Positions 246 to 15,133 of a stretch of 15,272 nt of DNA are shown here, one piece after another. Under the pieces are notes generated by a model. That model saw nothing but the letters and a program-made list of their open reading frames with translations. It searched no databases and was not told the origin of the DNA. The number at the start of each line of letters is the position of its first letter. Within the stretch, counting starts at the first letter, position 1. The stretch lies in the UHGV virus genome UHGV-0202386, one strand, 5' to 3'. The position numbers and the translations under genes are program-made. Source of the stretch: a virus.

Positions 246-268
246 GGTGTAGTCACTGGTGTAGTCAT
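246..268 (+). repeat. Tandem decamer GGTGTAGTCA x2 (12-bp spacing), candidate integrase arm-type sites in attL
   Basis: GGTGTAGTCAC 246-256 and GGTGTAGTCAT 258-268. A near-identical tandem pair lies at 15045-15066. Together with TTGTTCCACGTTGT (214-227 / 15013-15026) these form an imperfect direct repeat of about 60 bp just inside both ends. Confidence 0.55.
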
Positions 269-303
269 TTTTTTGCAAAATTGGGGAGCGGGGGAGAATA
301 AAC

Positions 304-2100: not shown

Positions 2101-2216
2101 CCCATCCACTAACACAGAGATCTAACCATGAATACTGGATATACGCCCGAACAGGGGCGGGGCTTCGTTCGTCCTGGTGAAACTAAAAAGCCATGTTATC
2201 GGGTATTTTCAGGCAT

Positions 2217-2287
2217 AAAAAAAGCGGCCCCGATAAGGAACCGCCTTTCTGAACAATTAACCTGCTGCGAAAAAAATGGATCAGTGC
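2217..2287 (-). ncRNA. Candidate small RNA of about 70 nt: extended -10 promoter to intrinsic terminator, in an ORF-free gap
   Basis: Minus-strand TGaTATAAT (plus 2294-2302) gives a predicted start near 2285-2287. Terminator hairpin at 2224-2248 (AAGGCGG..CCGCUU, about 11 bp with wobbles, 5-nt loop) is followed by U7 (plus A-run 2217-2223). No ORF of 60 aa or more on either strand here except the rejected long + frame. Confidence 0.3.
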
Positions 2288-2293
2288 AGGGGA

Positions 2294-2302
2294 ATTATAT
2301 CA
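2294..2302 (-). promoter_or_regulatory. Extended -10 promoter element TGaTATAAT (minus strand), no convincing -35
   Basis: Reverse complement of plus 2294-2302 reads TGATATAAT. Read directly. Confidence 0.35.
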
Positions 2303-2340
2303 ACCGTGTGGTGAAGCGCCACTATTGCCGGATAACAGGC

Positions 2341-2369
2341 AAAACAAAGGCGACCGCAAAAGGGTCGCC
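2341..2369 (-). terminator. Intrinsic terminator of the leftward RHH operon
   Basis: Perfect 7-bp stem GGCGACC/GGTCGCC (2349-2355 / 2363-2369) with 7-nt loop. On the minus strand it is followed by TTTGTTTTG (plus 2341-2348). Lies 66 nt downstream of the stop of ORF 2436-2609. Confidence 0.55.
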
Positions 2370-2435
2370 AGTGGGAACAAGGGAAAACAAAAGCATCACC
2401 AACAATGCCACATTTGCGGCTGGTGGGCAATGTGA

Positions 2436-2609
2436 TCAGTCAGATTTGGTTCGTTCCAAGGTTTGCAACGAGAGTTTTTTCCTGCGCTCTTTAAGGAATT
2501 TCTCAAGAGCAAACGAACAAGGTGCGAATCTTTCTGATTCATGCTCTATCTTTCTGCGCCGTCTTTTCCGTGTCGGTGATAATGTTTTGGTCAATTCTTT
2601 ATCGGTCAT
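2436..2609 (-). CDS. Hypothetical small basic protein (57 aa), second gene of the leftward operon
   Basis: ORF MTDKELTKTLSPTRKRRRRKIEHESERF..., AGGG 8 nt upstream of ATG 2609. An alternative ATG at 2624 has no RBS. A perfect 7-bp hairpin (2631-2637 / 2651-2657) separates it from the upstream gene. Supported mainly by the downstream terminator; no recognisable family. Confidence 0.35.
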   Translation of the reverse strand: MTDKELTKTLSPTRKRRRRKIEHESERFAPCSFALEKFLKERRKKLSLQTLERTKSD

Positions 2610-2666
2610 TGTGTTGCCCTGCATAGCAATGCGCCGTAATACCTTACACCACGGCGCTGGTGATGG

Positions 2667-2846
2667 TTACTCCTGCTCTTTGGCCTTGCGGCGCTGGCGG
2701 CGTTTGATCTCGCCTTGCATTGACGCAATGATGAATTGTGATGTGCTTTCGCCTGATTCTTTCACTGATTCCATGGCGTTTACTATTTCGTGTGGTACAC
2801 GAGCCTTTAGAGCTTGTGATTTTGCGTTTGTTGTACCCGTTGCCAT
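2667..2846 (-). CDS. Small ribbon-helix-helix (Arc/CopG-like) DNA-binding protein, candidate repressor of the divergent early promoter
   Basis: 59-aa ORF MATGTTNAKSQALKARVPHEIVNAMESVKESGESTSQFIIASMQGEIKRRQRRKAKEQE. By eye: beta strand (KARVP), helix, helix, basic tail. RBS AGAGGA upstream of ATG 2846. Faces a promoter overlapped by direct repeats. Confidence 0.65.
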   Translation of the reverse strand: MATGTTNAKSQALKARVPHEIVNAMESVKESGESTSQFIIASMQGEIKRRQRRKAKEQE

Positions 2847-2907
2847 TTCTATTCCTCTGTTGGATTGGTGGGGGACAGTATACACAGAAAAAGCACAAAT
2901 AAAACCC

Positions 2908-2948
2908 TTGACGTGGGCCACACCTAAAGCATATAGTGGGCCACACCT
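2908..2948 (+). promoter_or_regulatory. Rightward early promoter (-35 TTGACG 2908-2913, 18-bp spacer, -10 TATAGT 2932-2937) overlapped by two 13-bp direct-repeat operators GTGGGCCACACCT
   Basis: Repeat copies at 2913-2925 and 2936-2948 (perfect 13/13, 23-bp spacing), one over the -35/spacer and one over the -10/start. Sits in the divergent region between the RHH gene and the rightward ORF cluster. Confidence 0.5.
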
Positions 2949-2974
2949 TGAGATTGTCAAGGTGCATAAATGCA

Positions 2975-3009
2975 AAGCCCCGCAAGTGTCGTTACCACTC
3001 GCAGGGCTT
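2975..3009. other. Strong stem-loop in the 5' leader of the rightward operon; on the minus strand it reads as hairpin plus UUUGCAUUUAU
   Basis: AAGCCCCGCAAGTG (2975-2988) pairs with CACTCGCAGGGCTT (2996-3009) at 12 of 14 positions, 7-nt loop. No T-run on plus; T-rich tail on minus (plus 2961-2974). Confidence 0.5.
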
Positions 3010-3045
3010 CTAACCACCAACGATAGAAAGTGTATCGAGGTAGCT

Positions 3046-3252
3046 ATGAGAAATTATACCAGACACCCGCAAGGGCGGGACTCGTACAACCTGAATAAAT
3101 ACATCTGGCGTTTTATCGCCCTGAGCACGGCACAACCGCGCGTGATTACCATTGAGGCCACCAGCGAACAGGAAGCGCGTCAGCAATCTCCTGATGGCTG
3201 CGTGATGGTATTCGCTGCCCGTATTCGTCAGGGGGTACGCCATGTGCAATAA
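3046..3252 (+). CDS. Hypothetical protein (68 aa), first gene of the rightward early operon
   Basis: ATG 3046 preceded by GAGGT (3037-3041). Translation MRNYTRHPQGRDSYNLNKYIWRFIALSTAQPRVITIEATSEQEARQQSPDGCVMVFAARIRQGV. A vague resemblance to small Icd/Ash-like satellite proteins is my impression only. Confidence 0.6.
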   Translation: MRNYTRHPQGRDSYNLNKYIWRFIALSTAQPRVITIEATSEQEARQQSPDGCVMVFAARIRQGVRHVQ

Positions 3253-3481
3253 CACCCGTCCGGACGCAGCCGCCGAAGCCATCAAAACGCTGATGCACGC
3301 GCTGATTGATATTTCTGTTATCGCAGACAAGGCGCATAAGCGCGCCACCAGCGAAACAGAATATGCCGGGGCTTTCGTTCCTCACTCACTGGCTGTTATG
3401 CAACTTAGTGCGGATATGGCGCTGAATGAGGCTAAAGCCATCCTGATTGCTGATTGTGAAAATGGGGGGGGTTATGCGTGA
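3242..3481 (+). CDS. Hypothetical protein (79 aa)
   Basis: ATG 3242 overlaps the upstream stop; AGGGGG 9 nt upstream. No recognisable family. Confidence 0.55.
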   Translation: MCNNTRPDAAAEAIKTLMHALIDISVIADKAHKRATSETEYAGAFVPHSLAVMQLSADMALNEAKAILIADCENGGGYA

Positions 3482-3707
3482 TGATCGTTTTAATTCCCTG
3501 AAACAGGAATTTTCCGGCGTTCCTGATGATGCGGCTGATGCGCTTTCGTCAATGCCAGAGCTTATTAGAGCGGCTTTTTTCTTACTTTCCACGAGAGAAT
3601 ATAAATCAACGGGGCTTGATGTACTGAATATCGCCGCCGATTATGCGGAATATGTGGCAGAGGCGCGTTATAGAAGAAAATTTCCTGAGGATGTAAGCCA
3701 TGCGTGA
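3474..3707 (+). CDS. Hypothetical protein (77 aa from ATG 3474; alternative ATG 3462)
   Basis: G-rich RBS GGGGGGG upstream. Overlaps neighbours in the coupled ATGA/TGA style. Acidic protein, unknown. Confidence 0.5.
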   Translation: MRDDRFNSLKQEFSGVPDDAADALSSMPELIRAAFFLLSTREYKSTGLDVLNIAADYAEYVAEARYRRKFPEDVSHA

Positions 3708-3933
3708 TATTTACCACGAAACAATAGACCGCGCATTTCTTGCACTTTCTCACAGTGAAAACATGCTGGGAATATTGCGCATATGGCTTGAAACACTTGG
3801 CGACAATGAACGCGACAAACAAAAATCAAGAATTGCCACGGCATTAATAACGCTTCTTGAGCCTGTAATAATGGAACTGCAAGAAATAGATCTATTGCAC
3901 GACAGATATAAAGAACAGCACACCGGAGAATAA
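3700..3933 (+). CDS. Hypothetical protein (77 aa)
   Basis: ATG 3700 overlaps the upstream stop; GAGGA at 3686-3690. Unknown family. Confidence 0.5.
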   Translation: MRDIYHETIDRAFLALSHSENMLGILRIWLETLGDNERDKQKSRIATALITLLEPVIMELQEIDLLHDRYKEQHTGE

Positions 3934-3938
3934 AAATA

Positions 3939-4238
3939 ATGAAACTTAAATATTCTGGCTTAACTGCCAGTGGCAACACTCACCCTAAATTTACGCGCGG
4001 CGATATTTACCGCGACCAGTACGGCGGCACGGTAATGATTAAGGGCGTGGAAGAACGGCGCGTAACCTACCGCCGTGAAGGTTACGAATATGATTGCGTG
4101 ATGCCTGTTTATCAGTTCCGGCGTGATTTTTCTCTGGTACAGACCGCGCCGCATAACGTGTCCACCAGCAACGCCAGGGCACGGGCAAACATCCAGAAGC
4201 TGAAAACCATGATTAACGGATTCAGGGGTAAAAAATGA
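3939..4238 (+). CDS. Hypothetical protein (99 aa), possibly DUF4222-like
   Basis: Motif YRDQYGGTVMIKGVEERRVTYRREGYEYDCVMPVYQFRRDF reminds me of DUF4222 proteins of enterobacterial prophages (memory only). Stop overlaps the primase start. Confidence 0.5.
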   Translation: MKLKYSGLTASGNTHPKFTRGDIYRDQYGGTVMIKGVEERRVTYRREGYEYDCVMPVYQFRRDFSLVQTAPHNVSTSNARARANIQKLKTMINGFRGKK

Positions 4239-6049
4239 AACTGGCACCGAACGTAAAACAGCAGTCACGCGGCATAAAACACAAAGAAACAGAAGTCATT
4301 ATTTTTGCGGGTAGTGATGCCTGGTCACACGCAAAACAATGGCAGGAACATGACGCGCGTATGGCCGGAGATAATGAGCCTCCTGTGTGGCTTGGGGAGC
4401 AGCAGTTATCCGAACTGGATAAGCTGCAAATTGTGCCGGAAGGCAGAAAATCCGTGCGCATATTCAGGGCCGGATATCTTGCGCCAGTAATGATAAAGGC
4501 GATTGGTCAGAAGCTGGCGGCGGCAGGCGTACAGGATGCAAATTTTTATCCTGAGGGTATGCACGGTCAGGAGGTGCAGAACTGGCGCGAATATCTGGCC
4601 CGTGAGCGCCAGAATCTTTCTGATGGTCTGGTGATTCAGCTTCCTGTTAAGAAAAAAACAGAAGACAGCGCCGCACCACTGGCGCTTAACCAGATGGGAG
4701 CAAGCCAGCGCGGCGAAGTTCTCCTGGCACATTATGGCGGTGAACTGGCGATTCATGCCGACTCTGACACTGTTCACCATTACAACGGCGTTGTATGGGA
4801 GCCGATTCAGGATAAAGAGTTACAGCGTGCTATGGCGCAGATTTTCATTGATGCGGAGATCAGCTATTCGCAGAACGCCATTAAATCGGCGGTCGATACC
4901 ATGAAGTTAAGTTTGCCTGTAATGGGGAATACAGCCCGTAACCTGATTGGATTCAGTAACGGGGTATTTGATACCAGAACAGGTAATTTTCGGGAGCATA
5001 ACAAAAACGACTGGTTGTTAATTGCCAGTGAATTACCTTTCAGCCCACCAGCAGAGGGGGAAACGCTGGCAACACATGCGCCGAATTTCTGGAAGTGGTT
5101 ACGCTGCTCGGTGGCAGAGAATGACCGCAAGACGGATCGCGTGCTGGCTGCATTATTCATGGTGCTGGCGAACCGGTACGACTGGCAGTTATTCATTGAG
5201 GTAACAGGTCCAGGGGGAAGTGGTAAAAGCGTGATGGCGGAGATTTGCACTATGCTGGCGGGTAAGGCCAACACAGTATCGGCAAGCATGAAGGCGCTGG
5301 AAGATGCAAGGGAACGCGCGTTAGTGGTTGGCTTTTCGCTGATTATCATGCCGGATATGACCCGCTACGCTGGTGATGGCGCAGGAATTAAGGCCATTAC
5401 AGGCGGTGACAAGGTGGCAATCGACCCGAAGCATAAAGCCCCCTACTCAACACGCATTCAGGCGGTCGTGCTGGCGGTGAACAATAACGCCATGTCATTC
5501 AGTGACCGCAGCGGGGGGATCTCACGTCGTCGGGTGATATTCAATTTTTCGGAGGTTGTACCGGAGAACGAGCGCGACCCCATGCTGGCAGAAAAAATAG
5601 AAGGAGAGCTGGCGGTTGTGATTCGCCATCTGCTTACTCGTTTTTCTGACCAGGACGAAGCTAAACGCCTGCTGTATGAGCAGCAGAAATCAGAAGAAGC
5701 TCTGGTGATAAAACGCGAGGGCGATTCGCTGGTGGACTTCTGTGGCTATCTCATGTCGTCGGTAATGTGTGATGGTCTGTTAGTGGGTAATGCCGAAATT
5801 ATTCCGTTCAGTCCGCGCAGGTATCTTTATCACGCCTATCTGGCATATATGAGGGCACACGGATTCGGTAAACCTGTAACACTGACGCGCTTCGGTAAAG
5901 ATATGCCGGGGGCAATGGCGGAATATGGCAGGGAGTATATAAAACGGAAAACGAAGCACGGTTTGCGTTCAAATGTGACACTGACAGAGGATTCAGAAGA
6001 CTGGATGCCATCATGTGCATCGGTCACAAATGACGACAGCAAAAATTAA
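4235..6049 (+). CDS. Replication initiator: P4-alpha-like primase / SF3 helicase (Walker A GPGGSGKS)
   Basis: 604-aa ORF. Walker A in VTGPGGSGKSVMAE, Walker B-like LIIMPDM, sensor AVVLAVNNN. Followed directly by TGTTCACC iterons, as for P4 alpha and its ori. Confidence 0.8.
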   Translation: MKLAPNVKQQSRGIKHKETEVIIFAGSDAWSHAKQWQEHDARMAGDNEPPVWLGEQQLSELDKLQIVPEGRKSVRIFRAGYLAPVMIKAIGQKLAAAGVQDANFYPEGMHGQEVQNWREYLARERQNLSDGLVIQLPVKKKTEDSAAPLALNQMGASQRGEVLLAHYGGELAIHADSDTVHHYNGVVWEPIQDKELQRAMAQIFIDAEISYSQNAIKSAVDTMKLSLPVMGNTARNLIGFSNGVFDTRTGNFREHNKNDWLLIASELPFSPPAEGETLATHAPNFWKWLRCSVAENDRKTDRVLAALFMVLANRYDWQLFIEVTGPGGSGKSVMAEICTMLAGKANTVSASMKALEDARERALVVGFSLIIMPDMTRYAGDGAGIKAITGGDKVAIDPKHKAPYSTRIQAVVLAVNNNAMSFSDRSGGISRRRVIFNFSEVVPENERDPMLAEKIEGELAVVIRHLLTRFSDQDEAKRLLYEQQKSEEALVIKREGDSLVDFCGYLMSSVMCDGLLVGNAEIIPFSPRRYLYHAYLAYMRAHGFGKPVTLTRFGKDMPGAMAEYGREYIKRKTKHGLRSNVTLTEDSEDWMPSCASVTNDDSKN

Positions 6050-6336: not shown

Positions 6337-6582
6337 GTGACAACGCAGCACGCAAAAAAACCACAATCTCACGCCCTTGATTTGACAGAACACTGGCTGA
6401 GGGTGGCGATAAAAATCATCGACCGCAACGCGGGAGAAGGGTACGCAAAAGCACATCCCGAACTGGTAAGCGCATTCATGACCACGGCAGCGGCAAACTT
6501 TGCCACACTGACAGAACGGGAGATTGCCGAAGCGGAACAGGTGACAACCATCAACGTTAAAACCGGAGAGCAGACAGCATGA
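6337..6582 (+). CDS. Hypothetical protein (81 aa), GTG start
   Basis: GAGG at 6325-6328, 8 nt before GTG 6337. Stop overlaps the ssb start (ATGA). Unknown family. Confidence 0.5.
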   Translation: MTTQHAKKPQSHALDLTEHWLRVAIKIIDRNAGEGYAKAHPELVSAFMTTAAANFATLTEREIAEAEQVTTINVKTGEQTA

Positions 6583-7004
6583 CAGCACAGATAGCGGCTT
6601 ACGGGCGGCTGGTGGCTGACCCGCAGTTAAAGACCACCAGCAAAGGGACACAAATGGCGATGGCGAGTATGGCGGTTCCCCTGCCGTGCAGCCAGGCAGA
6701 TGACGGAACGGCGACGATGTGGTTATCTGTCCTGGCGTTTGGCAGACAGGCCGACGCACTGGCAAAACACCACAAAGGCGAACTGGTGAGCGTGGCGGGT
6801 AACATGCAGGTGAGCCAGTGGACAGGCCAGAACGGGGAAACGCGGCAGGGCTGGCAGGTTATTGCAGACAGCGTAATCAGTGCGCGAACGGCGCGACCGG
6901 GCGGCAAAAAAGGTCAACAGGGCCAGGCCACTGACGCACTGAACAGGGCAAAACAACAGACAAGCCAGCACGATGACCCGTACGGGGATAACATACCGTT
7001 TTAA
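6579..7004 (+). CDS. ssb: Single-stranded DNA-binding protein (short SSB with conserved C-terminal ..D-N-IPF tip)
   Basis: OB-fold pattern (W..V.AFG..A..L.K...KG..V.V.G......W....G..R) and C-terminus DDPYGDNIPF resembling the SSB acidic tip DDDIPF. GGAGAG RBS. Confidence 0.8.
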   Translation: MTAQIAAYGRLVADPQLKTTSKGTQMAMASMAVPLPCSQADDGTATMWLSVLAFGRQADALAKHHKGELVSVAGNMQVSQWTGQNGETRQGWQVIADSVISARTARPGGKKGQQGQATDALNRAKQQTSQHDDPYGDNIPF

Positions 7005-7040
7005 TTCACAACAGCGAACAGAGTAATTACAGGGGAAGGC

Positions 7041-7571
7041 ATGACAACGCTGACCATTAACCGGAAGCCGAAAGGCATTTACGGCACGCCGCAGAAAACG
7101 ACGCAGGCGGCGCAAGAGCAGGATAAAACCACATCGGTGCATAAAGTGATACCCGGCAATCAGAACGCACAGCAGAAGCCCACAGGGGCGACACCGTGGC
7201 AGCATATGACCAAAAGGCAGCGCAAAAACCGCCGACGCGTTAACCGCCTCACTGAGATGTGGCCTGACTTATTCAGCCATAAAGCACCGAAGCCGCTTAA
7301 GGTGGGGATATTCGACGACCTGATGCAGGATATCGCCGTCAGGGGGCTGGCATTCGGGTCGGGGGTATTACGTGCGACGCTGGCATCCTATGCGCAGTCT
7401 CCGCGCTATTACCGCGCCCTGATAGCTGGTGGCGCACGTTACGACCTGAAGGGCCAGCCATGTGGGGAAGTGACACCACAGGAACAGCAGGAGGCAGAAA
7501 CACGGCTGATGGTGCTGAATGAGAAGCACAAGCGCCAGCGCCGGGCAGCAAAGGGGGATACATGCCAGTGA
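7041..7571 (+). CDS. ProQ/FinO-domain RNA-binding protein (FinO-like RNA chaperone)
   Basis: PKPLKVGIFDDLMQDIAVRG...LRATLASYAQSPRYYRALIAGGARYDLKGQPCGEVTPQEQQEA aligns by eye to the ProQ/FinO core (PLKIGIFQDL...[35 protein letters not shown]). Lys/Gln-rich N-terminal extension. RBS AGGGGAAGG. Confidence 0.8.
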   Translation: MTTLTINRKPKGIYGTPQKTTQAAQEQDKTTSVHKVIPGNQNAQQKPTGATPWQHMTKRQRKNRRRVNRLTEMWPDLFSHKAPKPLKVGIFDDLMQDIAVRGLAFGSGVLRATLASYAQSPRYYRALIAGGARYDLKGQPCGEVTPQEQQEAETRLMVLNEKHKRQRRAAKGDTCQ

Positions 7572-11055: not shown

Positions 11056-11350
11056 AGCCAGAATTACACCTGATGAAGTCAGGGCACATCTTCGACTTGA
11101 TGATGATTTATCCGGTGAAGGCGAACTTCTGAAAATGTATACCGATGCGGCGCTGGAAGCCTGCCAGAAGCATATCGGGAAACGTTTTGAAGACGGGCTG
11201 GAATTTACCCCGGCAATGCGTGTTGGTTGCCTGATGTACATCGCTTTCCTGTACGAGAACCGGGAAGCGGTTTCACCAGTGGAGCAGTCTGAACTGCCTA
11301 TGGCTATTTCTGCGCTCTGGTCAGTTTATCGTGATGTAGGGGTGTACTGA
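11048..11350 (+). CDS. gp6-like head-tail connector (head completion/adaptor) protein
   Basis: 100 aa. MSEARITPDEVRAHLRLDDDLSGEGELLKMYTDAALEACQKHIGKRF matches the Phage_connect_1 N-terminal pattern (..HLRID.D.D...I......AA). Start overlaps the portal stop. Confidence 0.7.
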   Translation: MSEARITPDEVRAHLRLDDDLSGEGELLKMYTDAALEACQKHIGKRFEDGLEFTPAMRVGCLMYIAFLYENREAVSPVEQSELPMAISALWSVYRDVGVY

Positions 11351-11790
11351 TGCCGTGGCAACCATTAAGGCGATGCACTGAGCCGGGCTGTAATAAGCGC
11401 GTGAAGTCCGGCAAGTGTGAAGAGCACAGGCGGGCTGTATGGCGTGCAGAGGATGCCAGACGGGGACACCGCCGCGCGCGCGGGTATTCCCGACAGTGGG
11501 ACAAATACCGCGCCCTGTACCTGAGCAAAAACCCGTTATGCGTGCGTTGTCTGGCTAAGGGGATTTATACGCCAGCTCTTGTGGTGGATCACATCATCCC
11601 CATCAATGGCGGCGGTGATGTTCTCTTCTGGCCTGAGTGGAACCACCAGGCATTGTGCCAGACGTGCCACAACCGTAAGACGACACGGGAAGATCCAGCC
11701 ACGAAAGCGAACCGTAAGGCGGGCATGTATCGCGAGCAGGAAGAACGGGCAGCACACCGTAACGACTGGATGTATGGCGATGATGACTGA
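11350..11790 (+). CDS. Phage HNH endonuclease (terminase-associated)
   Basis: Cys-rich zinc finger (CTEPGCNKRVKSGKCEEH ... CVRC ... CQTCHNRKT) with VVDHIIPINGGGD..WNHQALC HNH core. Located immediately upstream of terS/terL, as in HK97-like cos phages. ATG overlaps the upstream stop (TGATG). Confidence 0.8.
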   Translation: MPWQPLRRCTEPGCNKRVKSGKCEEHRRAVWRAEDARRGHRRARGYSRQWDKYRALYLSKNPLCVRCLAKGIYTPALVVDHIIPINGGGDVLFWPEWNHQALCQTCHNRKTTREDPATKANRKAGMYREQEERAAHRNDWMYGDDD

Positions 11791-15000: not shown

Positions 15001-15066
15001 CTTGTGTCTATTTGTTCCACGTTGTTTCATACAGTGCACCGAACGGTGTAGTTACTGGTGTAGTCA
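15001..15066 (+). repeat. Right-arm copy of the terminal repeat: 3 phased TTGT motifs, TTGTTCCACGTTGT, and tandem GGTGTAGTTA/GGTGTAGTCA
   Basis: TTGT at 15002, 15012, 15022. TTGTTCCACGTTGT 15013-15026 is identical to 214-227. GGTGTAGTTACTGGTGTAGTCAT 15045-15067 versus left GGTGTAGTCACTGGTGTAGTCAT 246-268. Confidence 0.6.
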
Positions 15067-15133
15067 TTTTGCGATTTTTAAAGTTATCTAAGATATTATT
15101 TGTCATTTAAATTCAATTGGTTATGAGTACTTG

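What the first reader, a model, noticed from the sequence alone, without database searches (positions are those of the whole stretch)
3046..4238. Cluster of five small unknown ORFs immediately upstream of the primase
Five translationally coupled ORFs (68-99 aa) with good RBSs and no recognisable families lie where P4-type satellites carry helper-manipulation genes (derepression of the helper, interference functions). This is the most likely place for novel anti-helper, anti-defence or host-takeover proteins on this element.
Basis: inference. Interest (0 to 1): 0.6.

Follow-up and report, generated by a model that had tools for sequence, protein, structure and literature searches.

The report
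Early operon of a phage satellite
The five small ORFs are real, conserved genes at the start of the replication operon of a capsid-forming phage satellite (cf-PICI) of E. coli; two belong to known families (Icd-like, RgdR), two are halves of one gene split at a poly-G run, and the operon seems to be guarded by a conserved, apparently undescribed antisense RNA.

Summary
The ORFs sit exactly where stated (3046-4238) and are real. They keep their order in all 74 related loci whose sequence spans the whole cluster, have no internal stops, show dN/dS of about 0.2-0.4, have SD sequences and have overlapping stop/start codons that run into the primase.

- The element is a capsid-forming PICI (EcCIEDL933/O-island 51 kind) inserted in yifB, not a P4-type satellite.
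- Two ORFs have families. ORF1 is an Icd homologue (NF033153; 35% identical to P1 Icd). ORF5 is an RgdR/DUF4222 protein, 97/99 identical to its O157:H7 homologue, and RgdR is an experimentally characterised regulator.
- ORF2 and ORF3 are the two halves of one 154-aa protein, split here by a G8 run (G7 gives the fused form). So there are four genes.

The ORF2/3 protein and ORF4 (a confident two-helix hairpin) remain without function. They belong to small families seen almost only in Enterobacterales satellites.

Upstream I found an operator-flanked promoter next to a divergent YlcI/YnfO gene. I also found a conserved ~80-nt cis-antisense RNA covering the ORF1 ribosome site. It has covariation support, matched 55 times (always on that strand) across 76 sources from about 12 genera, and is not in Rfam. 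I found no support for anti-helper or anti-defence roles.

The parts
2667..2846 (-). Divergently transcribed YlcI/YnfO-family gene (59 aa from the ATG at 2846); candidate repressor of the small-ORF operon
   Evidence: NF041551 at 67.4 bits against a cutoff of 30. Annotated as YlcI/YnfO in relatives. The operator-like repeats change together with its allele.
2908..2937 (+). Sigma-70 promoter-like site, TTGACG-18-TATAGT (10 of 12), for the small-ORF/primase operon
   Evidence: A [CT]TGA[CA] -35 element in the same position is kept in the divergent intergenic variants.
2913..2948 (.). Two 13-bp direct repeats, GTGGGCCACACCT (2913-2925 and 2936-2948), overlapping the -35 and -10 elements; putative operators
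   Evidence: In relatives with other YlcI alleles the repeat core differs (GTGGCTGACACC, GTGTT[TC]AACACC, TGTGCGCACA ...) but its placement is kept.
2966..3048 (-). Predicted ~80-nt cis-antisense RNA. Stem-loop I (3011-3046) is complementary to the SD and ATG of ORF1. Stem-loop II (2975-3009) plus a U-rich tail looks like an intrinsic terminator.
   Evidence: The hairpin is more stable on the minus strand in 31 of 32 variants, mean -25.5 against -18.1 kcal/mol. 95.1% of cells pair as minus-strand RNA against 81.6% as plus-strand RNA. Covariance model R1 scores 84.4 bits in the window and gives 55 matches, all on this strand, in 76 sources. 17 of 27 pairs show compensatory changes and 0 of 500 shuffles reach the observed values. 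No Rfam family reaches threshold.
3053..3061 (-). Extended -10 element TGGTATAAT (read on the minus strand) inside ORF1 codons 3-6; predicted promoter of the antisense RNA, with a start near 3047
   Evidence: Read directly from the sequence. A TAnnnT element lies just upstream of the modelled RNA in the variants listed. No good -35 is present. The element overlaps conserved codons, so its conservation is ambiguous.
3046..3252 (+). ORF1: Icd-like protein, 68 aa, pI 10.4
   Evidence: NF033153, E 1e-19. 35% identity over 49 aa to P1 Icd, E 6e-8. P1 Icd matches the same model. Median dN/dS about 0.27-0.34.
3242..3481 (+). ORF2: N-terminal half (helical hairpin, low-confidence model) of the 154-aa protein; acidic, pI 5.1
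   Evidence: Matches phrog_2512 positions 1-76 and phrog_5146. Fused homologues. AF2 model of the fused form is all-helical with pLDDT 54.
3464..3471 (+). Poly-G run (G8) at the ORF2/ORF3 junction. G7 or G10 fuses the two ORFs; G8, G9 or G11 splits them.
   Evidence: Tract lengths among relatives: G7 in 21, G8 in 25, G9 in 9, G10 in 3, G11 in 1. The length is stable within lineages: every O157:H7 genome listed has the G7 length, while CFT073 and Nissle have the G8 length. pN/pS is similar in fused and split forms.
3474..3707 (+). ORF3: C-terminal half (three predicted helices) of the 154-aa protein; acidic, pI 4.8. Its own ATG follows the G-run, which can serve as an SD.
   Evidence: Matches phrog_2512 positions 78-154 and phrog_24341. 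Stand-alone and fused homologues. dN/dS 0.12-0.22.
3700..3933 (+). ORF4: 77-aa acidic two-helix hairpin protein of unknown function
   Evidence: phrog_2196, E 5e-41. 525 protein clusters, the best-listed all E. coli. AF2 pLDDT 93.4 with helices at 2-32 and 37-75. Only generic hairpin fold matches, all with E above 0.1. Diverged look-alikes with an [IM]WL[ED] motif occur in Klebsiella and Proteus loci (seen by eye).
3939..4238 (+). ORF5: RgdR-family (DUF4222) protein, 99 aa, pI 10.2, RGD motif at residues 20-22. Its stop codon overlaps the primase ATG (ATGA).
   Evidence: PF13973, E 1.6e-24. 97 of 99 residues identical to the O157:H7 protein at the same position in an OI-51-type island. RgdR/ECs1581 literature: PMC3378721, PMC6092414.
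4235..6049 (+). Primase/helicase (D5_N, DUF5906, Pox_D5); last gene of the coupled chain examined here

Best explanation
The segment is the promoter-proximal half of the early (replication) operon of a capsid-forming phage-inducible chromosomal island. It holds four conserved genes: icd-like; a two-domain acidic helical protein that this copy splits into ORF2 and ORF3 at a G8 run; a 77-aa helical-hairpin protein; and rgdR. They are translated as a coupled chain that ends in the primase.

I infer that transcription starts at the promoter at 2908-2937. Allele-specific repeats flank it, and I take these to be operators for the divergent YlcI/YnfO protein. I also infer that an ~80-nt cis-antisense RNA, made from an extended -10 promoter inside the first ORF1 codons, pairs with the ORF1 SD and start codon. 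Through coupling and polarity this would keep the whole chain, primase included, silent until induction. The logic resembles P1 c4-icd-ant, P22 sar-ant and plasmid CopA-tap-repA.

Once expressed, the products most likely act on the host cell and on satellite DNA, not on the helper phage. The Icd-like protein would arrest division while the island replicates and packages. RgdR is a small basic protein with non-specific DNA binding that is known to re-programme host transcription. The two acidic helical proteins would be partner-binding accessory factors with unknown targets.

Shown here: gene reality, family membership, the split-gene status and the conservation of the RNA structure. Inferred: the operator and antisense functions, and all protein activities in this element.
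For: Element identity: a 99%-identical relative is annotated int, HTH(AlpA-like), YlcI/YnfO, Icd-like, 3 hypotheticals, DUF4222, primase, SSB, ProQ/FinO, capsid, protease, portal, connector, HNH, TerS, TerL, all inside yifB. This matches the published cf-PICI layout (bioRxiv 10.1101/2022.09.08.507074).

Genes are real: conserved order, no internal stops, dN/dS 0.2-0.4.

Families: Icd; RgdR/DUF4222 (PMC3378721 and PMC6092414, the latter stating that RgdR is encoded by all analysed E. coli PICIs).

Split gene.

Single transcription unit: overlapping junctions and no convincing internal promoter or plus-strand terminator between 3046 and 4238.

Operators.

Antisense RNA. The first ORF downstream of the RNA looks Icd-like in five of the seven other-genus loci inspected (Klebsiella, Proteus, Serratia, Raoultella, Frischella, by eye; tblastn support for Klebsiella, Serratia and Proteus).

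Module behaviour: the same cluster precedes a primase, a RepA helicase or a DUF927 protein in different E. coli islands, so it travels as a unit with the regulatory region and is not tied to one replicase.

Precedent: in related satellite loci an Icd-like gene plus linked small genes and a primase are needed for a growth-arrest phenotype (bioRxiv 10.1101/2023.04.06.535777).
Against: No experiment exists for this element. The ORF2/3 and ORF4 proteins have no informative sequence or fold relatives. Icd function rests on 35% identity to P1 Icd. The known RgdR phenotypes (LEE1, motility) say nothing about its role in the satellite life cycle. The antisense RNA has no recognisable -35, and its -10 lies in conserved codons, so promoter conservation could come from coding constraint. 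No transcript data were available. Published work puts Gram-negative PICI induction under AlpA and does not mention a YlcI repressor or an antisense RNA (PMC6092414). PGAP annotates no YlcI gene in the O157:H7 island fetched, although other O157-type copies (L101 group) do encode one.
Confidence: 0.6

Rival explanations
1. One reading: one or more of the small proteins, most plausibly the acidic helical ORF2/3 and ORF4 products, manipulate the helper phage or block host defences (helper interference, derepression or anti-defence).
For: The products are small, acidic helical proteins (pI about 5) of unknown function, in a slot whose content differs between genera even where the primase is 75% identical. 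The alleles are mosaic, ranging from 45 to 100% identity and shuffled between islands. PICIs are known to interfere with helpers (PMC6092414).
Against: No match in PADLOC (which models defence systems, not anti-defence proteins), Pfam or NCBIfam, no PHROG family of known function, no PDB match and no informative fold match. Selection is purifying, not diversifying. The genes are a fixed part of E. coli PICIs, not a variable cargo spot. cf-PICIs build their own capsids and only borrow tails, and PICI induction runs through AlpA, not through helper derepression.
Confidence: 0.2
2. The cluster plus the primase is an abortive-infection or superinfection-exclusion device. A phage protein would trigger the Icd-like effector, causing division arrest or cell death, as reported for an ECOR61 'prophage' locus and a P4-like island.
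For: Silas et al. (bioRxiv 10.1101/2023.04.06.535777). Suppressor insertions fell in two small hypothetical genes and an Icd-like gene. [quoted passage not shown] The architecture of small genes, an Icd-like gene and a primase is the same here. A potentially toxic first gene covered by an antisense RNA also resembles a type I toxin-antitoxin pair.
Against: The ECOR61 Icd-like protein is 121 aa with an N-terminal extension and comes after two small genes, not first. I could not compare the sequences. No PADLOC model matches. Growth arrest on forced activation can also be a side effect of uncontrolled satellite replication (PMC6092414).
Confidence: 0.2
3. The ORF chain matters mainly as a translational-coupling conduit that sets primase dosage, in the way leader peptides do in antisense-controlled plasmid replicons. 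On this view the proteins themselves are of little importance.
For: Stop and start codons overlap all the way to the primase. The antisense RNA sits on the first ribosome site. The gene content of the slot changes between genera while the RNA and the primase stay.
Against: All five reading frames are under purifying selection at the protein level, and their lengths are conserved across alleles 45-70% identical. Two belong to families with demonstrated activities (PMC3378721).
Confidence: 0.1
4. The ORFs are chance open frames or decayed pseudogenes.
For: Short ORFs of this size are common on both strands of the window. ORF2 and ORF3 look like a frameshifted gene.
Against: Conserved order, no internal stops, dN/dS well below 1, HMM matches, and similar constraint in the fused and split states. 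The split form is carried by the mobilisable island of CFT073 (PMC6092414).
Confidence: 0.01

Closest known systems
EcCIEDL933 / O-island 51 (CP-933C) of E. coli O157:H7, the prototype cf-PICI, and the classical PICI EcCICFT073
   Same: Same module order: icd-like, ORF2/3, ORF4, rgdR, then the replicase. The O157:H7 copy is about 97% identical in DNA over 3228-4238. CFT073 and Nissle carry the same genes. Overall cf-PICI gene set is the same.
   Different: This island sits in yifB and uses a D5/P4-type primase, whereas the O157 island has a RepA helicase. The O157 copy has the fused 154-aa gene (G7) and a different Icd allele (56% identical), plus one extra small gene.
Phage P1 immI operon (c4 RNA - icd - ant)
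   Same: An Icd-family first gene whose ribosome site is the target of a small regulatory RNA, and whose translation is coupled to the downstream gene by an overlapping ATGA. A repressor-controlled promoter lies upstream.
   Different: The P1 C4 RNA is encoded on the same strand, upstream of icd, and is processed from the operon transcript. Here the RNA is a true cis-antisense transcript, and Rfam C4 does not match. The downstream genes here are small proteins and a primase, not an antirepressor.
P22 sar RNA/ant, SymR/SymE, and plasmid CopA-tap-repA or RNAI-repY-repZ control
   Same: A short, highly structured cis-antisense RNA overlaps the ribosome site of a first or leader ORF and so controls a translationally coupled downstream gene. 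A divergent small regulator gene beside the promoter recalls the P22 mnt/arc layout. These parallels come from my own knowledge of those systems.
   Different: No sequence relationship was found. The function here is inferred only from structure conservation and position.
P4-like satellites (left operon: kil/Icd-like ... epsilon, orf151, alpha)
   Same: Small genes, including an Icd-like one, precede a P4-family primase domain (TIGR01613 at 96 bits, below its cutoff of 108.7). P4-like islands carry Icd-like genes after AlpA.
   Different: No Sid, Psu, Delta or epsilon family matched the window proteins scanned, and none is named in the relative's annotation. No CI/C4 RNA was found. The island has its own capsid and terminase genes. 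The literature treats PICIs and P4 as independent lineages (PMC6092414).

Membership tests
Capsid-forming PICI (cf-PICI) | Island of about 15 kb with int, an alpA-type regulator and a rep/pri gene at the left end | tested here: met
   int at 304-1533; HTH/excisionase-type regulator at 1872-2075 (phrog_2790); primase at 4235-6049. Annotation of a 99%-identical relative.
Capsid-forming PICI (cf-PICI) | Own major capsid, prohead protease, portal, head-tail connector, HNH, TerS and TerL genes, with no tail or lysis genes | tested here: met
   PGAP annotation of the 99%-identical relative L001 lists exactly these genes and no tail or lysis genes.
Capsid-forming PICI (cf-PICI) | Induction by a helper phage through AlpA, and transfer in its own small capsids joined to helper tails | not testable with these tools
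   Needs experiments. Shown for EcCIEDL933 in bioRxiv 10.1101/2022.09.08.507074.
P4-type satellite | Sid, Psu, Delta and epsilon genes, and dependence on helper capsid genes | tested here: not met
   No such family appeared in the Pfam, NCBIfam or PHROG scans of the proteins tested or in the relative's annotation. Not every gene in the window was scanned. The island encodes its own capsid.
P4-type satellite | CI/C4-type immunity RNA in the leader of the primase operon | tested here: not met
   No Rfam match at gathering score anywhere in the window. At relaxed threshold the leader gives only insignificant matches (best: isrJ, E 3.4).
Icd (P1 cell-division inhibitor) family, NF033153 | Match to the family model above its curated cutoff, and direct similarity to P1 Icd | tested here: met
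   70.3 bits against a cutoff of 25. BLASTP against P1 Icd gives 35% identity over 49 aa, E 6e-8. P1 Icd itself scores 52.6 bits on the same model.
Icd (P1 cell-division inhibitor) family, NF033153 | Inhibits host cell division when expressed | not testable with these tools
   Needs expression and microscopy.
RgdR / DUF4222 (PF13973) | DUF4222 domain, 99 aa, basic, RGD motif at residues 20-22, encoded just upstream of the replicase in an OI-51-type island | tested here: met
   PF13973 at 85.7 bits against 27. RGD at residues 20-22, with Q27, K35 and R61 as in ECs1581 (sequence, compared with PMC3378721). pI 10.2. 97 of 99 residues identical to the O157:H7 PV15-279 homologue.
RgdR / DUF4222 (PF13973) | Activates LEE1/type III secretion, represses motility, binds DNA non-specifically | not testable with these tools
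   Shown for ECs1581 and for C1493 of CFT073 (PMC3378721). This allele carries A10 and R45, as in the inactive ED1a variant, but keeps R20, the residue shown to be decisive.
Known anti-phage defence system proteins (PADLOC-DB) | Match to any model of a known or candidate defence system | tested here: not met
   No hit at E up to 0.1 for any of the five ORFs or the primase.
Phase-variable (contingency) locus | Homopolymer length changes fast enough to differ among close relatives or within clones, switching gene expression | tested here: inconclusive
   The tract ranges from G7 to G11 (possibly G6) among islands with near-identical flanks. It is constant within O157:H7 (G7) and within CFT073/Nissle (G8). 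The change toggles fusion against fission, not on against off.
Cis-antisense regulatory RNA | Conserved secondary structure with compensatory changes on the antisense strand, plus its own promoter and terminator | tested here: met
   Structure and strand. Terminator-like hairpin with a U-rich tail. A -10-like element at a matching position. No -35 was found and the transcript itself has not been observed.

The most novel reading that the evidence does not exclude
Gram-negative PICIs and related primase-bearing satellites across Enterobacterales and Orbales may share an undescribed immunity layer. It would consist of an allele-specific YlcI/YnfO repressor-operator pair plus a conserved ~80-nt cis-antisense RNA that clamps the ribosome site of a potentially toxic Icd-like first gene. 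That would gate the whole coupled chain down to the primase, acting at once as a type-I-toxin-antitoxin-like safety catch and as a replication-control circuit. The poly-G fission/fusion of the ORF2/3 gene would then tune coupling strength. If so, induction of these satellites is not explained by AlpA alone.
Probability: 0.3. Interest if true: 0.65.

Novelty: new member of a known kind. Interest (0 to 1): 0.4.

Why it matters
As submitted, the finding is largely ordinary. It is the standard early module of E. coli PICIs, which is present in about 15% of complete E. coli genomes, and one of its genes (rgdR) is already a published virulence regulator.

Its value is in the clarification. A first pass would label this an 'unknown anti-helper cluster on a P4-like element'. 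It is in fact four conserved genes on a cf-PICI, two of them with known families.

Two by-products may be useful to people working on satellites. First, the conserved antisense RNA and the allele-specific operators at the head of the operon suggest a control layer for Gram-negative PICI induction that I did not find in the PICI papers consulted here. Second, the ORF2/3 gene exists as stable fused and split forms, which offers a natural handle for genetics. The ORF2/3 and ORF4 proteins remain true unknowns restricted to these satellites and are reasonable targets for a small functional screen.

Tried and rejected
1. C4/CI-type RNA in the leader. Rfam finds nothing at gathering score. At relaxed threshold there is only an insignificant isrJ match (E 3.4).

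2. Structure-based function for the ORF2/3 protein. The AF2 model of the fused protein has pLDDT 54, which is too poor for a fold search.

3. Fold search with the confident ORF4 hairpin. Only generic helical hairpins came back, all with E above 0.1. A low-ranked match to the phage HK446 Rip1-TerS complex (E 1.7, probability 0.23) is not meaningful.

4. PDB sequence searches for ORF1, ORF4, ORF5 and the ORF2/3 profile. No hits at E up to 1.

5. ORF3 and ORF4 as paralogues. Both are 77 aa, both start MRD and both share the ATGCGTGAT junction, but hhalign gives probability 0.3%, so I rejected this.

6. The 374-aa ORF at 2128-3252, in frame with ORF1, as a 'long Icd-like' protein. PGAP calls Icd-like pseudogenes downstream of alpA in relatives. 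Its N-terminal part has no family match, it runs antisense to two conserved minus-strand genes, and the promoter lies inside it. I treated it as an artefact.

7. Fast phase variation at the poly-G run. The tract is stable within lineages, so this is not supported.

8. A first, ungapped pN/pS comparison of fused and split forms was misaligned by length variants. I redid it with codon alignments.

9. Phage origin. DNA search of the phage collection found nothing. Protein searches hit only a 16.5-kb 'induced prophage' record that is probably itself a cf-PICI, plus weak DUF4222 matches.

10. I could not fetch the ECOR61 contig QOYT01000045 for a direct comparison.
Full report
**1. What the window is**

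Megablast against complete E. coli genomes finds near-identical copies of the whole 15.3-kb window (99% identity, 98% coverage) inserted in yifB. The annotation of one such copy reads, in order: integrase; HTH regulator; a small hypothetical and a YlcI/YnfO gene on the opposite strand; Icd-like; three hypotheticals; DUF4222; DNA primase; hypothetical; SSB; ProQ/FinO; hypothetical; major capsid; HK97 protease; portal; head-tail connector; HNH; hypothetical; TerS; TerL; hypothetical.

That is the published layout of a capsid-forming PICI, whose prototype is EcCIEDL933, the O-island 51 / CP-933C element of O157:H7. It is not a P4-type satellite.
- None of the window proteins scanned matched a Sid, Psu, Delta or epsilon family, and the relative's annotation names none.
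- Rfam finds no CI/C4 RNA.
- The primase reaches only 96 bits on the P4-family C-terminal model, whose cutoff is 108.7.

**2. The observation**

The five ORFs are at exactly the stated coordinates. The junctions between successive genes, ending at the primase, are -11, -8, -8, +5 and -4 nt, and each start codon has an SD-like motif.

Short ORFs are common on both strands of this window, so I tested whether these are genes by comparison with relatives.
- I fetched 80 IMG/VR loci using ORF4 as the query, plus four E. coli loci. All five ORFs occur in the same order in 74 of the 74 loci whose sequence covers the whole cluster. The other ten (seven lacking ORF1 and ORF2, three others) mostly start too close to a contig end to hold the missing ORFs.
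- Each ORF has several allele classes, from 45 to 100% amino-acid identity, combined in a mosaic fashion.
- None of the 12-49 distinct nucleotide alleles per ORF has an internal stop.
- Median pairwise dN/dS is 0.27 (ORF1), 0.43 (ORF2), 0.22 (ORF3), 0.29 (ORF4) and 0.29 (ORF5).
- At least 80% of the cluster is present in 787 of 5426 complete E. coli genomes. It is followed by a primase, a RepA-type helicase or a DUF927 protein, depending on the island.

These are real genes. They travel as a module with the regulatory region and are not tied to one replicase.

**3. What the genes are**

*ORF1* (68 aa, pI 10.4).
- I fetched the P1 genome and compared ORF1 directly with authentic Icd: 35% identity over 49 residues, E 6e-8. 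P1 Icd matches the same model.

*ORF5* (99 aa, pI 10.2).
- It is a DUF4222 protein (PF13973, 85.7 bits against 27) with an RGD tripeptide at residues 20-22.
- DUF4222 with this RGD motif defines RgdR (ECs1581), the regulator found in O-island 51. RgdR activates LEE1 and type III secretion, represses motility and binds DNA non-specifically (PMC3378721; PMC10877973).
- Fillol-Salom et al. state that RgdR is encoded by all E. coli PICIs they analysed (PMC6092414).
- The window protein is 97/99 identical to the protein at the same position in an O157:H7 island. It keeps R20, Q27, K35 and R61.

*ORF2 and ORF3* are one gene.
- PHROG 2512 is a 154-residue family. ORF2 matches its positions 1-76 and ORF3 its positions 78-154.
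- In O157:H7 and other strains a single 154-aa CDS is annotated here.
- A database search with that fused protein finds 495 clusters, the best-listed mostly full-length 150-156-aa forms.
- The difference is a poly-G run at the junction. The window has G8 (3464-3471). G7 or G10 gives the in-frame fusion. G8, G9 or G11 gives two ORFs, with the second starting at an ATG two bases after the run.
- Among 59 tracts found in relatives with near-identical flanks the counts are G7 21, G8 25, G9 9, G10 3 and G11 1.
- In complete genomes the length is stable within lineages. Every O157:H7 listed has the G7 length, CFT073 and Nissle have the G8 length, and two STEC genomes appear one base shorter.
- pN/pS is the same in fused and split forms: 0.54 against 0.57 for the N-half, and 0.49 against 0.45 for the C-half.
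- More distant relatives exist as stand-alone N-halves and C-halves.

Both architectures therefore look functional. The run is a recurrent slippage polymorphism, not a fast switch or a pseudogenising lesion.

The family is tiny, with 53 representatives at 50% identity among 1.84 billion proteins. AlphaFold gives an all-helical model of low confidence (pLDDT 54).

*ORF4* (77 aa, acidic).
- It belongs to phrog_2196. A search finds 525 clusters, and the best 120 are all E. coli at 91% identity or more.
- It folds with high confidence (pLDDT 93.4) into a two-helix hairpin.
- Foldseek against the PDB and viral models returns only generic hairpins, all with E above 0.1.

*Negative results for the set.*
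- None of the five matches PADLOC.
- PDB sequence searches with ORF1, ORF4, ORF5 and the ORF2/3 profile gave no hit.
- DNA search of the phage collection with the whole region, and protein searches with ORF1 and ORF5, hit almost nothing. The exception is a 16.5-kb 'induced prophage' record that is probably itself a cf-PICI.

**4. How the operon is controlled (outside the stated coordinates)**

*Promoter and operators.* The 199-bp spacer between the YlcI/YnfO gene (2667-2846, minus strand) and ORF1 holds a promoter-like site, TTGACG-18-TATAGT, at 2908-2937. It is bracketed by two 13-bp direct repeats, GTGGGCCACACCT. In relatives that carry other YlcI/YnfO alleles the repeats stay in the same positions but have a different core. 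That is the pattern expected for a repressor and its operators.

*Conserved hairpin on the minus strand.* Downstream of the promoter lies a hairpin (2975-3009).
- Its sequence differs between islands while its pairing is kept.
- In 31 of 32 distinct variants it is more stable as minus-strand RNA, with a mean of -25.5 against -18.1 kcal/mol. The reason is that its G.U pairs become C.A mismatches on the plus strand. The variants come from Klebsiella, Enterobacter, Serratia and Proteus as well as Escherichia.
- On the minus strand it is followed by a U-rich tail.

*Second stem.* RNAalifold adds a 5' stem-loop in which the complement of the ORF1 SD and ATG (3039-3046) pairs with an invariant GGUGGUUA.
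- The two-stem structure forms 95.1% standard pairs on the minus strand, against 81.6% on the plus strand.
- It beats all 500 column shuffles and all register shifts.

*Predicted promoter.* An extended -10 element, TGGTATAAT, lies on the minus strand at 3053-3061, inside ORF1 codons 3-6. This places the predicted start at the first base of stem I. A TAnnnT element sits just upstream of the modelled RNA in the variants listed.

*Distribution.* A covariance model of the 81 positions finds 55 matches in 76 sources.
- Every match is on the strand opposite the primase.
- In the loci anchored on the primase the match lies about 0.4-1.9 kb upstream of it, usually 1.4-1.9 kb. There is one match per locus, apart from one locus with two.
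- The genera are Escherichia, Klebsiella, Raoultella, Kluyvera, Pluralibacter, Enterobacter, Serratia, Proteus, Xenorhabdus, Photorhabdus, Frischella and Gilliamella.
- On that wider alignment 17 of 27 pairs show compensatory changes.
- The first ORF downstream looks Icd-like in five of the seven other-genus loci I inspected, while the following small ORFs differ.

*Interpretation.* I read this as an ~80-nt cis-antisense RNA that occludes the ribosome site of the first gene. No Rfam family reaches threshold, and the PICI papers I consulted do not mention it.

*Caveats.* There is no good -35. The -10 overlaps conserved codons. No transcript data were available.

**5. Most likely mechanism**

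Shown:
- Four conserved genes.
- Two family memberships.
- A split gene.
- A coupled layout ending in the primase.
- Conserved operator-like repeats.
- A conserved antisense-strand RNA structure.

Inferred:
- The YlcI-like protein and the antisense RNA keep the operon silent.
- On induction (AlpA-dependent in characterised PICIs, PMC6092414) the chain is translated.
- The Icd-like protein arrests division.
- RgdR alters host and/or island DNA transactions.
- The two acidic helical proteins bind unknown partners.
- The primase starts replication.

The logic parallels P1 immI, where the c4 RNA targets the icd ribosome site and icd translation is needed for ant. It also parallels antisense-controlled leader-ORF systems such as P22 sar/ant and R1 CopA-tap-repA, which I cite from my own knowledge.

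One relevant precedent exists. In ECOR61 and in a P4-like island, Icd-like genes together with linked small genes and a primase mediate growth arrest triggered by phage accessory proteins (bioRxiv 10.1101/2023.04.06.535777). The gene order there is different, and I could not compare the sequences.

**6. Verdict**

A host-directed role is plausible for ORF1 and ORF5. The P4-type label and the anti-helper/anti-defence ideas have no support.

As submitted, the finding is a new member of a known kind, namely the standard early module of E. coli PICIs, with rgdR already published. The unexplained remainder is the function of the ORF2/3 and ORF4 proteins. The most interesting by-product is the conserved antisense RNA and operator layer. 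If confirmed, it would add a control step to Gram-negative PICI induction.

Noticed in passing
window 255-271 and 15054-15070: An exact 17-bp direct repeat, ACTGGTGTAGTCATTTT, lies near both ends of the island. One copy is just upstream of int and the other is before the 3' part of yifB. It is a candidate attL/attR core.
   Followed up: no
window 2667-3470 compared with L001 (NZ_CM128599): A relative that is 99% identical overall is 99-100% identical in protein from ORF3 through the primase, but only 63% in YlcI, 94% in ORF1 and 91% in ORF2, and it has G9 in place of G8. This looks like a recombination break at or near the poly-G run, so the regulatory cassette is exchanged as a unit.
   Followed up: partly
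window 3474-3482 and 3700-3708: The ORF2/ORF3 and ORF3/ORF4 junctions use the same 9-nt sequence, ATGCGTGAT (start codon, with the previous gene's TGA stop at bases 6-8). ORF3 and ORF4 are both 77 aa and both start MRD, yet their profiles are unrelated.
   Followed up: yes
window 2128-3252 (+): A 374-aa ORF lies in frame with ORF1. It runs antisense to the YlcI/YnfO gene and to a second small minus-strand gene (2436-2609). PGAP annotates 'Icd-like pseudogene, missing C-terminus' in the equivalent place after alpA in O157:H7 and Nissle. Its N-terminal part has no family match. It may be an artefact or the remnant of a long Icd-like gene.
   Followed up: partly
protein P0041: A 128-aa E. coli protein is a chimera of the Icd-like N-terminus joined to the end of the ORF2 domain plus the whole ORF3 domain. 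This is a deletion variant of the cluster.
   Followed up: no
phage record LR881103.1 (Escherichia phage vB_KppS-Ant, 16,548 bp, 'induced prophage'): This is the only record in the phage collection with an ORF1 homologue. Its size suggests it is a cf-PICI deposited as a phage.
   Followed up: no
window 2974-3057 (-): A sub-threshold Rfam match to the Salmonella island sRNA IsrJ (14.1 bits, E 3.4) covers the same stretch as the predicted antisense RNA. It is not significant, but it spans the model end to end.
   Followed up: partly
L133 1564-1644 (-) and 2301-2376 (-): One IMG/VR locus has two matches to the antisense-RNA model, about 0.7 kb apart. This could be a duplicated regulatory cassette or tandem islands.
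   Followed up: no
window 6579-7571 and 11350-11790: The island also encodes an SSB, a ProQ/FinO-family RNA chaperone and an HNH endonuclease next to TerS/TerL. A ProQ/FinO protein on an element with a structured antisense RNA may be worth linking.
   Followed up: no
L008 4799-5017, L044 3523-3717, L028 3682-4092: In Klebsiella and Proteus the slot contains diverged look-alikes of ORF4 with an [IM]WL[ED] motif. In Xenorhabdus, Photorhabdus and Klebsiella it contains a recurrent small family with the motifs 'ISL.QA..(R/K)..L..SLF' and 'CD(I/F)NQE(V/I)..AL'. Both were seen by eye and not tested statistically.
   Followed up: no
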